A program made the translations under genes and the position numbers. A stretch of 31,000 nucleotides of DNA from Bacteroidales bacterium (GTDB lineage Bacteria; Bacteroidota; Bacteroidia; Bacteroidales; Prolixibacteraceae): positions 1 to 31,000 of the forward strand of contig JBBRGI010000001.1 in NCBI GenBank assembly GCA_038240855.1. Reading direction: 5' to 3'. Below, one piece after another: positions 26,950 to 28,986 of this stretch; the first letter of the stretch is position 1, and each line of letters opens with the position of its first letter. A model generated the notes under the pieces. It was not told the DNA's origin, searched no databases, and saw only the letters and a program-made list of their open reading frames with translations.

Positions 26950-28986
26950 CTAAACATCCAGAATAACATCTGATGATGGTCTGCAGGAACAAACCAAACA
27001 ATTTCCTGTCAAGGGTTTGGCAGCCGTTTCATGATTGTATTCAACCGTTCCTGATATTAATTTGGTGCTGCAAGCCCCACACTCGCCAAACATACATCCA
27101 GCATCCAGGATGATTTCGTTTGATTCGGCAAATTCAAGAATGTTTTTGAATTCGTGGTCCCATTGAACTGTTCTGTTTGATCTTTGAAAGTGAACCTGCA
27201 TAACTTTGCTTTTTTCATTGGGCAGTATGTAATCTTTATCGGTACCAAACGATTCAGTATATATCTGGCTTTTCCGGCCTTTCCATTCCGCTATTCCTTC
27301 AACAAGCTGTGCCGTCATTTTTTCGGGTCCACAAATATAAAAGCTGAAGTGATTGCCAGAAGGTAAAAGCGATTTCAATAACTGCATATCAAAGCGCTGA
27401 CGATAATATTGCCATGACTTATTCGAATCCGCACCAAGGTTTGGATCGAGGCTGAAAAATACATGAACTTTTATTTTCGGGTTTTCTTCACACAATTGGT
27501 CAATCTCTTCTTTAAAACATAAACGGGTATTATCTTTTGCTGCCAGAATCAAATATGCCTCCTCCTTTGAAGTTTTCGCAACCGATTTTAGCATAGCCAA
27601 AATTGGGGTAATGCCAATCCCCGCAGCAATAAAAACACTTAGGCTCCTTTTTGCCGGTTTGTAGGTGAAGTTTCCTTTAGGGCCTCTGGCCTGCATAATG
27701 TCACCTGGTTTTAAGGAGCTGTGCAAAGCATTTGAAACATGCCCTCCTGATTCCCTCTTTACTGATATACGGTATTGATTTTCACTGTAGCTGTTAGAGA
27801 TAGTATAGGAACGAAGTGCGTATTTGATTTGGTTACCATCAGATTTATCGGGGTCGAAACACAACTTTTTTTCACGAAAAGGAATTTTGAAGGTCAAATG
27901 CTGACCCGGTAGATATTTTAGAAGCGCTGGCTTTTCGGTACTGGATAAATATATTGATTTCACTTCCGGACTTTCATCAATGATTTTAGTAACCACTAAT
28001 TTATGGTAAGTTTTCCCTTCTGTCAGTTTTTCGGTTTGTGTTTTTGCCCCATCATCAAAAAATCCAAACCATTTATCCATTGGAATCGTTGATTCGCCAT
28101 AATTGCATTCGAACAGCCGGTGATGCAAATAGTGAAAGTACGAACCGAATGACAGATATTTAAATACTTTACCTTCGAAACCTGAATGGCTGGGAGCCGG
28201 AGTTAGGGCAGTGTGCTGTGAATTAAACAGAAAATGCAAAGGGTGCGAGGGCACAACGCAGTGGATTAACACCACACTAAAATACAGAATGTGTTCTACC
28301 GGGTGCATTGCCAATCCCGACCAGGGACCTGGATTGATATTATAATGATGGAGATAATGCACTCTGTCATACAATGGTTTCCAATGTATCAACCGGTGTA
28401 TCAGGTAAAAATGAAACTCTCGCCAAAATGGGATGAGCAAAAATAGTAGAATAAAAAAAACAGGTTGCTCATTAAAATCAAGATAAGGGATCTTATTGTT
28501 GGCATACAACCAGAAGGTGAGCGCTTCGTAGGCAGTCCAAACGGGGACAGCGCTTGCACAAGCCCAGAATACATTGTCATAAACCTGATCGTTCCACAGA
28601 AAGGTTGCCCCGTTTGCATTTTGCCACCGGGGACTGTACTTTGCCTCTGTTCCCCGCGATTTAAACTTATACAAATACAAATGCCAGCCACCATACACGA
28701 TCCAAACCAGAGCCATATTTCTGATAAATATGGTTAGAATCCACGATATTTTGAATGTCTTCATCTCCTCAACCGGCGGTTGTAGATAATAATAACTAAA
28801 AATGACGACCGCCAGATAGATCAGATTCCAGGAAACAATGTAGTTAAAAAGCCACCTAACGAAGCTTTTAAATTTGGGAGGCCAAATAAATATGGGAGCA
28901 TAAACGACCGGATTATTGGGACGCCATTCGCCGCGGCTATCACGATAACCACCAATCGTGTTTTGGTTTGAATTTGTTCTTTCCAT
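26950..28986 (-). CDS. Fusion: membrane di-iron fatty-acid hydroxylase/sterol desaturase domain + FNR-type FAD/NAD(P)H reductase + [2Fe-2S] ferredoxin
   Basis: His boxes HRLIH, HYLHH, HPVE, SHSG, HYLHH; then PGQHL, RSYTIS, GHVS, AAGIGITP, YICGP, ESF; then CMFGECGAC...CLVC. One uninterrupted 678-aa ORF. Confidence 0.9.
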   Translation of the reverse strand: MERTNSNQNTIGGYRDSRGEWRPNNPVVYAPIFIWPPKFKSFVRWLFNYIVSWNLIYLAVVIFSYYYLQPPVEEMKTFKISWILTIFIRNMALVWIVYGGWHLYLYKFKSRGTEAKYSPRWQNANGATFLWNDQVYDNVFWACASAVPVWTAYEALTFWLYANNKIPYLDFNEQPVFFILLFLLIPFWREFHFYLIHRLIHWKPLYDRVHYLHHYNINPGPWSGLAMHPVEHILYFSVVLIHCVVPSHPLHFLFNSQHTALTPAPSHSGFEGKVFKYLSFGSYFHYLHHRLFECNYGESTIPMDKWFGFFDDGAKTQTEKLTEGKTYHKLVVTKIIDESPEVKSIYLSSTEKPALLKYLPGQHLTFKIPFREKKLCFDPDKSDGNQIKYALRSYTISNSYSENQYRISVKRESGGHVSNALHSSLKPGDIMQARGPKGNFTYKPAKRSLSVFIAAGIGITPILAMLKSVAKTSKEEAYLILAAKDNTRLCFKEEIDQLCEENPKIKVHVFFSLDPNLGADSNKSWQYYRQRFDMQLLKSLLPSGNHFSFYICGPEKMTAQLVEGIAEWKGRKSQIYTESFGTDKDYILPNEKSKVMQVHFQRSNRTVQWDHEFKNILEFAESNEIILDAGCMFGECGACSTKLISGTVEYNHETAAKPLTGNCLVCSCRPSSDVILDV

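What the first reader, a model, noticed from the sequence alone, without database searches (positions are those of the whole stretch)
26950..28986. Self-sufficient membrane di-iron oxygenase: hydroxylase/desaturase fused to its whole electron-transfer chain
Seen: one ORF joining a complete His-box di-iron domain (residues ~1-320), a short linker (DDGAKTQTEKLTEGK, ~28010-28055), an FNR-type FAD/NAD(P)H module and a plant-type [2Fe-2S] domain. Established: this family (Erg3, Erg25, alkylglycerol monooxygenase) normally relies on separate donors such as cytochrome b5, and this FNR-Fd reductase layout is typical of soluble oxygenase systems (PaaE, Hcr, MmoC-like). I do not know a characterised protein with this three-part architecture. 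It would be a P450-BM3-like single-chain membrane oxygenase.
Basis: partly seen in the sequence, partly recalled or inferred. Interest (0 to 1): 0.85.

Follow-up and report, generated by a model that had tools for sequence, protein, structure and literature searches.

The report
Single-chain membrane oxygenase in fucose locus
A real, conserved gene fuses a membrane di-iron hydroxylase of the MocD (rhizopine oxygenase) type to its own NAD(P)H-flavin-[2Fe-2S] electron supply, and its neighbours in several phyla point to removal of methyl groups from sugars such as methyl-fucose, a step in glycan breakdown whose enzymes are largely unknown.

Summary
Window 26950-28986 on the minus strand encodes 678 aa: FA_hydroxylase (full His boxes, four membrane helices), a 15-residue linker, FAD_binding_6, NAD_binding_1 and a plant-type [2Fe-2S] domain.

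It is not an assembly error. About 70 protein clusters (42-86% identity) share the architecture, and contigs from two samples cover the linker without indels.

- A three-domain AlkB with fused ferredoxin and ferredoxin reductase has been expressed and is active.
- The nearest relatives are not Erg3, Erg25 or AGMO. They are bacterial MocD-type proteins (40-50% identity) followed by a MocE-family Rieske ferredoxin and a reductase.
- The same hydroxylase subfamily also became fused, apparently independently, to Rieske+FNR and to rubredoxin+reductase modules.

Across at least six phyla its neighbours are carbohydrate genes: GH29/GH95 fucosidases, rhaM mutarotase, sugar transporters, a TIM barrel, an AraC regulator and sulfatases. 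They also include a URO-D-like protein that in five lineages sits beside a corrinoid protein, a RACo activase and DUF1638.

Best reading (about 0.5): an O2- and NAD(P)H-dependent O-demethylase of a methylated 6-deoxy-sugar, paired with a corrinoid-dependent route. No biochemistry exists. I class it as a new variant of a known kind. The scan had noted the URO-D/hydroxylase pair on another genome.

The parts
26950..28986 (-). Whole fusion ORF, 678 aa (P0001), stop codon included
   Evidence: full-length homologues
28057..28986 (-). Membrane di-iron hydroxylase domain (residues 1-310), MocD-type subfamily of FA_hydroxylase. Predicted long helices at 39-68, 80-107, 134-162 and 175-200.
   Evidence: Pfam PF04116. 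AF2 model pLDDT 94, pTM 0.91. Fold matches ERG3/SC5D/ERG25 models, TM about 0.55.
28384..28413 (-). His box 1, HFYLIHRLIH (H192, H197, H201)
   Evidence: invariant; H197 and H201 invariant across 58 diverse domains
28345..28359 (-). His box 2, HYLHH (H210, H213, H214)
28120..28134 (-). His box 3, HYLHH (H285, H288, H289)
28012..28056 (-). Linker DDGAKTQTEKLTEGK (residues 311-325) between hydroxylase and reductase
   Evidence: partly conserved (DGxxTxTEK); covered by contigs of two samples
27661..27996 (-). FAD_binding_6 domain (331-442) with RSYT flavin motif at 392
27310..27633 (-). NAD_binding_1 domain (452-559) with GIGITP (456) and CGP (552)
26977..27186 (-). Plant-type [2Fe-2S] ferredoxin domain (601-670); Cys631, 636, 639 and 666
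29033..29953 (-). Upstream co-directional xylose-isomerase-like TIM-barrel gene (306 aa). It recurs next to the hydroxylase from Bacteroidota to Rhizobium.
30149..31000 (+). Divergent AraC-family regulator (runs off the window). A divergent AraC recurs at homologous loci.
25652..26686 (-). RhaT-family sugar:H+ symporter
24290..25546 (-). URO-D-like protein (418 aa), the most sequence-conserved neighbour of the hydroxylase (56-83% identity across phyla)
20843..24284 (-). Two GH29 alpha-L-fucosidase genes with F5/8 type C domains
20453..20776 (-). rhaM-family mutarotase, last gene of the co-directional run

Best explanation
The gene encodes a cytoplasm-facing, membrane-anchored di-iron monooxygenase that carries its own electron chain. 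NAD(P)H reduces the FAD. Electrons pass one at a time through the C-terminal [2Fe-2S] domain, which hangs on flexible linkers, to the His-ligated di-iron centre at the cytoplasmic face of a four-helix membrane domain.

With O2, the enzyme hydroxylates the methyl group of an O-methylated sugar. The sugar is imported by the RhaT-type symporter after release by the locus's fucosidases, and is most likely a methylated 6-deoxy-hexose such as O-methyl-L-fucose. The resulting hemiacetal falls apart into formaldehyde and the free sugar, which enters ordinary fucose catabolism (FucI is encoded elsewhere in the genome).

The neighbouring URO-D-like protein is probably the substrate methyltransferase of an O2-independent, corrinoid-dependent route to the same end.

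What is shown and what is inferred:
- Shown: architecture, intact cofactor motifs, conservation, kinship with MocD-type hydroxylases, and carbohydrate and corrinoid neighbourhoods.
- Inferred: self-sufficiency, O2 use, demethylation chemistry and the identity of the sugar.
For: 1. All cofactor motifs are invariant in 28 homologues.

2. The reductase half resembles phthalate-dioxygenase-reductase-type modules, including the one fused in the self-sufficient P450 CYP116B46, and GbcB, PaaE and Hcr.

3. The hydroxylase domain is 40-50% identical to rhizobial 'sterol desaturase family' proteins. These are followed by a Rieske ferredoxin that scores 193 bits on TIGR02377 'MocE family' and by an FAD reductase, which is the mocD-mocE-mocF layout. 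MocD is described as the rhizopine oxygenase converting 3-O-methyl-scyllo-inosamine to scyllo-inosamine, that is an O-demethylation of a water-soluble cyclitol (PMC2593844; Bahar 1998 as cited in PMC10107442).

4. The same hydroxylase subfamily is also fused to Rieske+NAD_binding and to rubredoxin+rubredoxin reductase, in separate, well-supported clades. The domain therefore depends on an electron supply, which was captured repeatedly.

5. Recurrent neighbours over 80 loci from at least six phyla are TIM barrel (14), AraC (12), GH29 (10), URO-D-like (9), SSF symporter (9), sulfatase (9), sugar-binding protein (8), ThuA, LacI and AKR. No lipid genes recur.

6. In five independent lineages the cluster also holds a corrinoid protein, a RACo activase and/or DUF1638, the kit of cobalamin-dependent methyl-transfer systems. 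These are L089 (a MAG whose related protein is labelled Propionivibrio), L032 and L021 (Kiritimatiellales/Pontiella), L031 (Verrucomicrobia) and L064 (Anaeromyxobacter MAG). In L032 the genes form one co-directional run: corrinoid protein, RACo, DUF1638, SSF, a 260-aa ORF (not annotated), URO-D-like, hydroxylase.

7. In Mesorhizobium and Bradyrhizobium plasmids a PanB-like hydroxymethyltransferase, another C1-handling family, sits directly upstream.

8. The window's own genome has terminal oxidases, FucI elsewhere, and a corrinoid protein, RACo and DUF1638.

9. Methylated sugars are known to block catabolism and to be removed oxidatively by P450s in marine Bacteroidota (PMC6292453).
Against: - No enzyme of this architecture or of the MocD clade has been assayed in vitro as far as I could find. 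The MocD function rests on genetics.
- I did not align an authentic L5-30 MocD sequence. The link goes through NCBI's MocE-family model and gene order.
- The methylated sugar is not identified and no known methyl-sugar-specific glycosidase was recognised in the window.
- The URO-D-like gene is often translationally coupled to the hydroxylase gene, which fits a sequential pathway at least as well as two alternative routes.
- Many stand-alone homologues, for example in Opitutae, have none of the probed neighbours.
- Some homologues lie in Kiritimatiellales MAGs, a group I recall as largely anaerobic (not tested here), where an O2-dependent enzyme is unexpected.
- The inter-domain geometry of the full-length model is unreliable (pTM 0.50).
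Confidence: 0.5

Rival explanations
1. Same self-sufficient oxygenase acting on an imported sugar or cyclitol, but with different chemistry. It would hydroxylate or desaturate a carbon of the sugar, for example the C6 methyl of fucose or rhamnose, or carry out stepwise methyl-to-carboxyl oxidation as ERG25 does. The URO-D-like and TIM-barrel proteins would then process the product in sequence.
For: - Fold relatives include the C4-methylsterol oxidase ERG25 and the desaturase ERG3.
- An AlkB/desaturase-family oxygenase fused to Rieske+FNR lies next to the hydroxylase in L004, L016 and L021. That family includes terminal-methyl hydroxylases.
Against: - The only functionally described close relative, MocD, is assigned an O-demethylation.
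- Co-location with corrinoid protein, RACo and DUF1638 in five lineages points to a heteroatom-bound methyl group.
- No sugar-acid or L-galactose catabolic genes are seen in the window.
Confidence: 0.2
2. Same enzyme type, but the physiological substrate is not a fucose derivative. It could be a methylated cyclitol (pinitol or rhizopine-like), another methylated hexose or uronic acid, or an N-methyl compound. The fucosidase neighbourhood would then reflect only the composition of the target glycan.
For: - Rhizobial relatives sit with inositol-catabolism genes (iolD, iolE, Gfo/Idh/MocA) and sugar ABC systems.
- Verrucomicrobial fusion loci show only an AraC regulator, or GH95.
- Latescibacterial loci carry sulfatases and ThuA.
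Against: In Bacteroidota and several Verrucomicrobia and Kiritimatiellota loci the constant companions are GH29/GH95 fucosidases, rhaM-family mutarotase and RhaT-type transporters.
Confidence: 0.15
3. A membrane-lipid modifying enzyme, such as a hydroxylase or desaturase of sphingolipid, ornithine lipid, hopanoid or carotenoid like most characterised FA_hydroxylase members. It would lie in the sugar locus by chance.
For: Pfam family name and fold similarity to ERG3, ERG25, CER1 and fatty-acid hydroxylases. The domain is integral to the membrane.
Against: - Only 17-24% identity to those lipid enzymes.
- Carbohydrate neighbours are conserved across phyla, and no lipid genes recur.
- A divergent AraC sugar-type regulator is present.
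- The clade is sister to MocD-type proteins.
Confidence: 0.07
4. Assembly or sequencing artefact: two genes joined by a lost stop codon or a chimeric contig.
For: The genome is a fragmented sediment MAG (378 contigs, 81% complete).
Against: - About 70 independent clusters and 12 species genomes have the same fusion with a conserved linker.
- Contigs from two samples cover the junction without indels.
Confidence: 0.01

Closest known systems
MocD/MocE/MocF rhizopine oxygenase system of Sinorhizobium meliloti and Rhizobium leguminosarum (Bahar et al. 1998)
   Same: - The hydroxylase domain belongs to the same subfamily: 40-50% identity to rhizobial proteins in the mocD position, directly upstream of a MocE-family ferredoxin.
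- Water-soluble carbohydrate-like substrate.
- A xylose-isomerase-like TIM-barrel gene is often adjacent.
- The proposed chemistry is O-demethylation.
   Different: - Here the Rieske ferredoxin and the glutathione-reductase-type FAD reductase are replaced by a covalently fused FNR-type FAD/NAD module plus a plant-type [2Fe-2S] domain.
- The context is a fucosidase locus of a Bacteroidota sediment MAG, not an inositol or opine locus.
- MocD itself is only genetically characterised.
Three-domain AlkB (ferredoxin reductase-ferredoxin-AlkB) and rubredoxin-AlkB fusions (PMC8918992; PMC10113152)
   Same: A class III membrane di-iron monooxygenase naturally fused to its electron-transfer proteins. 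The three-domain AlkB was expressed and found active, so a 'self-sufficient' membrane di-iron oxygenase already exists.
   Different: - Different Pfam family (FA_desaturase/AlkB, not FA_hydroxylase).
- The electron-transfer domains are N-terminal there and C-terminal here.
- The substrate there is alkanes.
Phthalate dioxygenase reductase-type modules and class VII self-sufficient P450s (CYP116B46; PDB 6laa, 6kbh, 2pia)
   Same: Flavin, NAD and a C-terminal [2Fe-2S] in one chain, fused to an oxygenase. These were the best structural matches of the reductase half.
   Different: The oxygenase partner is a soluble haem P450, the flavin is FMN in PDR, and only about 20% identity.
Cytochrome P450 6-O-methyl-D-galactose demethylase with ferredoxin and ferredoxin reductase in marine Bacteroidota (PMC6292453)
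   Same: The proposed role: oxidative removal of a sugar O-methyl group inside a polysaccharide utilisation locus, releasing formaldehyde.
   Different: Unrelated fold and cofactor (soluble haem-thiolate against membrane di-iron), and three separate proteins. The resemblance is functional and hypothetical.
Eukaryotic FA_hydroxylase enzymes (ERG3/SC5D, ERG25/MSMO1, FA2H/Scs7p, AGMO)
   Same: Same superfamily, His boxes and four-helix membrane fold (TM about 0.55 to AlphaFold models). FA2H carries a fused cytochrome b5.
   Different: 17-24% identity, lipid substrates, electrons from cytochrome b5 and its reductase. A profile of the subfamily finds no solved structure by sequence.

Membership tests
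FA_hydroxylase superfamily (Pfam PF04116) | Profile match above the curated threshold | tested here: met
   65.1 bits against a cut-off of 31, residues 183-308
FA_hydroxylase superfamily (Pfam PF04116) | Histidine boxes HX3-4H, HX2-3HH, HX2-3HH that ligate the di-iron centre | tested here: met
   HFYLIHRLIH, HYLHH and HYLHH. Invariant in 28 fusions. H197, H201, H210, H213, H214, H288 and H289 are invariant in 58 diverse domains.
FA_hydroxylase superfamily (Pfam PF04116) | Four transmembrane helices with a cytoplasmic His-rich cap; fold shared with ERG3, ERG25 and Scs7p | tested here: met
   AF2 model pLDDT 94 with helices 39-68, 80-107, 134-162 and 175-200. Foldseek against Swiss-Prot models gives ERG3/SC5D/ERG25, E 3e-9 to 1e-5, TM about 0.55. 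No hit among solved structures.
FA_hydroxylase superfamily (Pfam PF04116) | O2-dependent di-iron catalysis | not testable with these tools
   Needs metal analysis and an activity assay
MocD-type hydroxylases (rhizopine oxygenase component) | Close sequence kinship with proteins in the mocD position, upstream of a MocE-family ferredoxin and a MocF-type reductase | tested here: met
   40-50% identity over residues about 8-323 to rhizobial plasmid proteins. The downstream ferredoxin scores 193 bits on TIGR02377 MocE family. The rhizobial clade is sister to the clade holding the fusions.
MocD-type hydroxylases (rhizopine oxygenase component) | Separate Rieske ferredoxin (MocE) and FAD reductase (MocF) as electron donors | tested here: not met
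   No Rieske or MocF-type gene in the window. Electron transfer is by the fused FNR-type and plant-type [2Fe-2S] domains.
MocD-type hydroxylases (rhizopine oxygenase component) | Conversion of 3-O-methyl-scyllo-inosamine to scyllo-inosamine | not testable with these tools
   Biochemical. The locus has no mocA, mocB, mocC, mocR or iol genes.
FNR-family reductases with C-terminal plant-type ferredoxin (PaaE, Hcr, GbcB, PDR type) | Domain order flavin, NAD, [2Fe-2S] with the motifs RxY(S/T), GxGxxP, CGP and Cx4Cx2C...C | tested here: met
   Pfam domains; sub-threshold NCBIfam similarity to Hcr, GbcB and PaaE; motifs at 392, 456, 552, 631-639 and 666; structural matches 2pia and 6laa
Three-domain self-sufficient AlkB (ferr_ferrR_AlkB) | AlkB/FA_desaturase (PF00487) hydroxylase with N-terminal ferredoxin reductase and ferredoxin | tested here: not met
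   The hydroxylase is PF04116, with no PF00487 hit, and the reductase is C-terminal. It works like this family but is not a member.

The most novel reading that the evidence does not exclude
MocD-type membrane di-iron hydroxylases are a widespread, unrecognised class of carbohydrate O-demethylases in glycan-degrading bacteria. I found at least 582 loci among species genomes, in Verrucomicrobiota, Kiritimatiellota, Bacteroidota, Latescibacterota, Acidobacteriota and rhizobia. They would work side by side with an equally undescribed cobalamin-dependent sugar O-demethylase (URO-D-like methyltransferase, corrinoid protein, RACo, DUF1638). One gene cluster could then strip methyl ethers from deoxy-sugars with or without oxygen. 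The fusion in this window would be the single-chain form of the aerobic arm.
Probability: 0.35. Interest if true: 0.8.

Novelty: new variant of a known kind. Interest (0 to 1): 0.62.

Why it matters
Methyl ethers on fucose, rhamnose, galactose and xylose make parts of plant, algal and microbial glycans hard to degrade. Only one enzyme type for removing them from sugars is described, a P450 for 6-O-methyl-galactose.

If the reading is right, this family is a second, unrelated and much more widespread solution. The fused form needs no partner proteins, so it is the easiest member to express and assay. That would turn a genetic model from 1998 (MocDEF) into testable biochemistry.

A natural single-chain membrane di-iron oxygenase acting on a polar substrate would also interest biocatalysis. 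The co-located corrinoid system hints at anaerobic cleavage of alkyl methyl ethers, for which I know of no described enzyme.

Tried and rejected
- **Sequencing error or lost stop codon:** rejected.
- **Solved structures:** sequence searches of the PDB with the N-domain profile and the TIM barrel found nothing, and the URO-D-like protein gave only marginal hits to HemE and MtaA. Foldseek of the N-domain against the PDB found nothing.
- **Full-length AF2 model:** too uncertain (pLDDT 71, pTM 0.50) to say how the [2Fe-2S] domain docks.
- **Literature:** seven searches for this architecture, for methyl-fucose demethylation and for sterol-desaturase genes in PULs found no description.
- **URO-D protein of L089:** not detectably similar to the window's URO-D-like protein by BLASTP. 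The link to corrinoid genes therefore rests on L021, L031, L032 and L064, where the window-type URO-D-like protein itself is present.
- **Corrinoid operon on own contig C97:** its upstream half resembles the 'mlp' clusters proposed for methyl-sulfur or methyl-selenide metabolism (PMC10418091). I use it only as evidence that a corrinoid protein exists in the genome.
- **Same taxonomic order:** 0 of 200 sampled genomes carry the protein. It is patchy and probably transferred horizontally, not a lineage trait.
- **Promoter and terminator scan of 26500-30300:** nothing above chance.
- **ESM Atlas look-ups of the TIM barrel and the URO-D-like protein:** only generic names.
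Full report
**1. Observation**

The ORF lies on the minus strand, 26950-28986, and gives 678 residues without a stop. Pfam places four domains, all above threshold:
- FA_hydroxylase at residues 183-308
- FAD_binding_6 at 331-442
- NAD_binding_1 at 452-559
- Fer2 at 601-670

NCBIfam gives only sub-threshold similarity of the C-terminal half to the FAD/NAD part of flavohaemoprotein and to Hcr, GbcB, PaaE and MmoC. 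It finds nothing for the N-terminal half.

The motifs can be read directly:
- HFYLIHRLIH (192-201), HYLHH (210-214), HYLHH (285-289)
- RSYT (392), GIGITP (456), CGP (552), CMFGECGAC (631-639) and Cys666

**2. The fusion is real**

- A word-indexed search of 5.8 billion proteins found about 70 clusters with the same four-domain architecture over the full length, at 42-86% identity.
- In an alignment of 28 of them, every His-box histidine, the flavin and NAD motifs and four cluster cysteines are invariant. The linker is partly conserved.
- Twelve species-level genomes carry the full fusion, by record title. They include Bacteroidota-type MAGs (Cytophagales, Prolixibacteraceae, Draconibacterium, Carboxylicivirga, 'Porphyromonadaceae') and Verrucomicrobia (Akkermansiaceae, Oceaniferula, UBA6053, UBA6056).
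- The window comes from a sediment metagenome. A Logan contig of the source run spans the whole ORF with one synonymous difference. A contig from a second sample covers the linker with no difference.
- The protein is patchy: 0 of 200 sampled genomes of the same order have it. At 50% clustering the full-length form collapses to essentially one representative.

**3. What the hydroxylase is**

A 58-sequence alignment of the domain gave a confident model: pLDDT 94, pTM 0.91, four long helices and a helical cap. It matches no solved structure, by sequence or by Foldseek. It does match AlphaFold models of ERG3/SC5D, ERG25 and CER1 at TM about 0.55 and 17-24% identity.

Its close relatives are bacterial:
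- A scan of one genome per species found at least 582 loci with the subfamily motifs. Most are stand-alone proteins of about 330 aa. By record title they come from Opitutae and other Verrucomicrobia, Pontiella/Kiritimatiellales, Phycisphaerae, Latescibacterota, Acidobacteriota, Gemmatimonadota, Rhizobium and Vibrio nigripulchritudo.
- On rhizobial plasmids the 40-50% identical 'sterol desaturase family protein' is followed by a Rieske ferredoxin and an FAD-dependent oxidoreductase, often with a TIM-barrel gene between or beside them.
- The S. meliloti pSymA ferredoxin scores 193 bits on NCBI's 'MocE family' model. That is the mocD-mocE-mocF arrangement.
- MocD is described as the oxygenase that converts 3-O-methyl-scyllo-inosamine to scyllo-inosamine (PMC2593844; Bahar et al. 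1998 as cited in PMC10107442).

**4. Repeated capture of electron donors**

The same hydroxylase subfamily occurs in five forms:
- alone
- fused to FNR+Fer2 (this case)
- fused to Rieske+NAD_binding (P0078, P0081)
- fused to rubredoxin (P0082)
- fused to rubredoxin+rubredoxin reductase (P0086-P0092)

A maximum-likelihood tree of 72 domains gives these results:
- 27 of 28 FNR-type fusions form one clade (SH-aLRT 98).
- The rubredoxin fusions form another clade (100).
- The Rieske fusions form a third clade (99).
- The rhizobial MocD-like clade is sister to the group that holds the first two.

Three separately supported fusion clades carry three different electron-transfer chains, which suggests three separate captures. 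This argues that the domain is an electron-dependent oxygenase and that fusion is advantageous.

The reductase half resembles phthalate dioxygenase reductase and the reductase fused in the self-sufficient P450 CYP116B46.

**5. Context**

In the window the gene sits in a co-directional run, opposite a divergent AraC regulator. The order is TIM barrel, fusion, RhaT-type symporter, URO-D-like, GH29, GH29, rhaM mutarotase. The rest of the window holds two GH95, a third GH29, a GH106-like protein, SGNH and BD-FAE esterases and a LytTR two-component system.

The association is conserved:
- A 70%-identical fusion from a MAG titled Cytophagales is followed by RhaT, URO-D-like, GH29 and rhaM.
- A 60%-identical one sits as AraC / fusion / TIM barrel / SusC / SusD / GH29.
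- tblastn of the window's proteins, and blind clustering of all neighbours over 80 loci, give these recurrent partners: TIM barrel (14 loci), AraC (12), GH29 (10), MocF-type reductase (10), URO-D-like (9; 56-83% identity across phyla), SSF symporter (9), sulfatase (9), sugar-binding protein (8), SDR, ThuA, LacI, Rieske ferredoxin and aldo-keto reductase. No lipid-metabolism family recurs.

The substrate is therefore very probably a soluble carbohydrate.

**6. Why a methyl group**

Besides the MocD precedent, the cluster is joined in five lineages by the hallmark genes of corrinoid methyltransferase systems.
- L089 reads: sugar-binding protein, CUT2-type ABC ATPase, rhaM, hydroxylase-Rieske-NAD fusion, PocR/AraC, corrinoid protein, RACo, DUF1638, URO-D.
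- L032 (Kiritimatiellales) has one co-directional run: corrinoid protein, RACo, DUF1638, SSF, a 260-aa ORF (not annotated), URO-D-like, hydroxylase.
- L021, L031 and L064 show parts of the same set.

URO-D-fold proteins include MtaA-type and, from established knowledge, ether-cleaving O-demethylase methyltransferases.

In Mesorhizobium and Bradyrhizobium plasmids a PanB-like hydroxymethyltransferase, another one-carbon enzyme, precedes the hydroxylase. Two unrelated C1-handling families next to the same hydroxylase fit a reaction that liberates a C1 unit. This is inference.

The window's genome has terminal oxidases, FucI on another contig, and a corrinoid protein, RACo and DUF1638. Both an oxygen-dependent and a corrinoid route are feasible there, and free fucose has a pathway to enter.

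**7. Mechanism proposed**

NAD(P)H passes electrons to FAD, then to the [2Fe-2S] cluster, then to the di-iron centre. O2 activation follows, then hydroxylation of the O-methyl carbon. The hemiacetal collapses to formaldehyde plus the free sugar.

An even number of membrane helices puts both the His cap and the C-terminal reductase in the cytoplasm, where the RhaT-imported sugar arrives. Short low-confidence linkers (residues 312-321 and 582-593) would let the Fe-S domain shuttle. The geometry could not be assessed.

**8. Comparison and novelty**

The idea of a self-sufficient membrane di-iron oxygenase is established for AlkB. A ferredoxin-reductase/ferredoxin/AlkB protein is active, and rubredoxin-AlkB has a cryo-EM structure (PMC8918992; PMC10113152). 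FA2H carries a fused cytochrome b5.

What is new here:
- the FA_hydroxylase/MocD scaffold
- the C-terminal PDR-like module
- the carbohydrate context

I found no paper on any of these. I therefore class it as a new variant of a known kind, of moderate to high interest. Most of the interest lies in the possible sugar demethylase function and its corrinoid partner rather than in the fusion as such.

My add evidence for it that I gathered separately, from loci outside this window.

**9. Limits**

- There is no biochemistry.
- No authentic MocD sequence was aligned.
- The sugar is unidentified.
- Many stand-alone homologues lack the probed neighbours.
- Translational coupling of the URO-D-like and hydroxylase genes could mean a sequential pathway rather than alternative routes.

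Noticed in passing
L004:8345-10600 (next to the fusion at L004:10658-12682); also L021:11891-14143 and L016:1815-4046: A second single-chain membrane oxygenase lies beside the hydroxylase in three lineages. It is about 750 aa and combines FA_desaturase/AlkB-family, Rieske, FAD_binding_6 and NAD_binding_1 domains. In L021 it is followed by a rubredoxin-rubredoxin reductase fusion. R. leguminosarum L086 has an unfused FA_desaturase gene in the same position.
   Followed up: partly
Own genome contig C97 (L093:576-9916, minus strand): A run of genes: corrinoid protein, URO-D, URO-D+thioredoxin, homocysteine S-methyltransferase-type, CobW, MFS sugar transporter, a paralogue of the window's URO-D-like protein (36% identity, E 1e-42), and a TIM barrel fused to a 3-keto-disaccharide hydrolase. 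The first half resembles the 'mlp' clusters of PMC10418091. The second half looks like another modified-sugar module.
   Followed up: partly
L032:2195-10960 (Kiritimatiellales MAG): A co-directional run: corrinoid protein, RACo, DUF1638, SSF symporter, a 260-aa ORF (not annotated), URO-D-like, stand-alone hydroxylase. It is a candidate cobalamin-dependent sugar demethylation operon. As far as I recall the group is largely anaerobic (not tested here), which makes the role of an O2-dependent-type hydroxylase there puzzling.
   Followed up: partly
L084:6906-11770 and L085:7051-12550 (Mesorhizobium and Bradyrhizobium plasmids): A MocD-like gene preceded by ribokinase-like and PanB-like (3-methyl-2-oxobutanoate hydroxymethyltransferase family, sub-threshold) genes, and followed by a Rieske ferredoxin, a TIM barrel and an FAD reductase, under a divergent AraC regulator. 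This looks like an undescribed sugar pathway with a C1-transfer step.
   Followed up: no
Paraburkholderia phymatum STM815 plasmid NC_010625.1:1393573-1394520 (hit H89): A 34%-identical homologue. A paper reports a pSym-borne 'sterol desaturase/fatty acid hydroxylase' membrane protein of this strain induced 27-fold by Mimosa root exudate, whose main component is pinitol (PMC5789663). I did not check whether it is the same gene.
   Followed up: no
window 1-20413: The rest of the window is a fucose-centred glycan locus: two GH95, GH29, a GH43-like protein, a 1231-aa GH106-like protein, three SGNH and two BD-FAE esterases, and a LytTR two-component system. No SusC/SusD pair and no sulfatase occur within the window. 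The target glycan is acetylated and fucosylated but unidentified.
   Followed up: no
window 26687-26949; L001:12057-12179 and L002:3120-3242: A 263-bp gap separates the fusion from the RhaT gene. In the 70%-identical Cytophagales locus a 40-aa ORF was called in the equivalent gap. I did not check whether a conserved small ORF or a regulatory element lies there.
   Followed up: no
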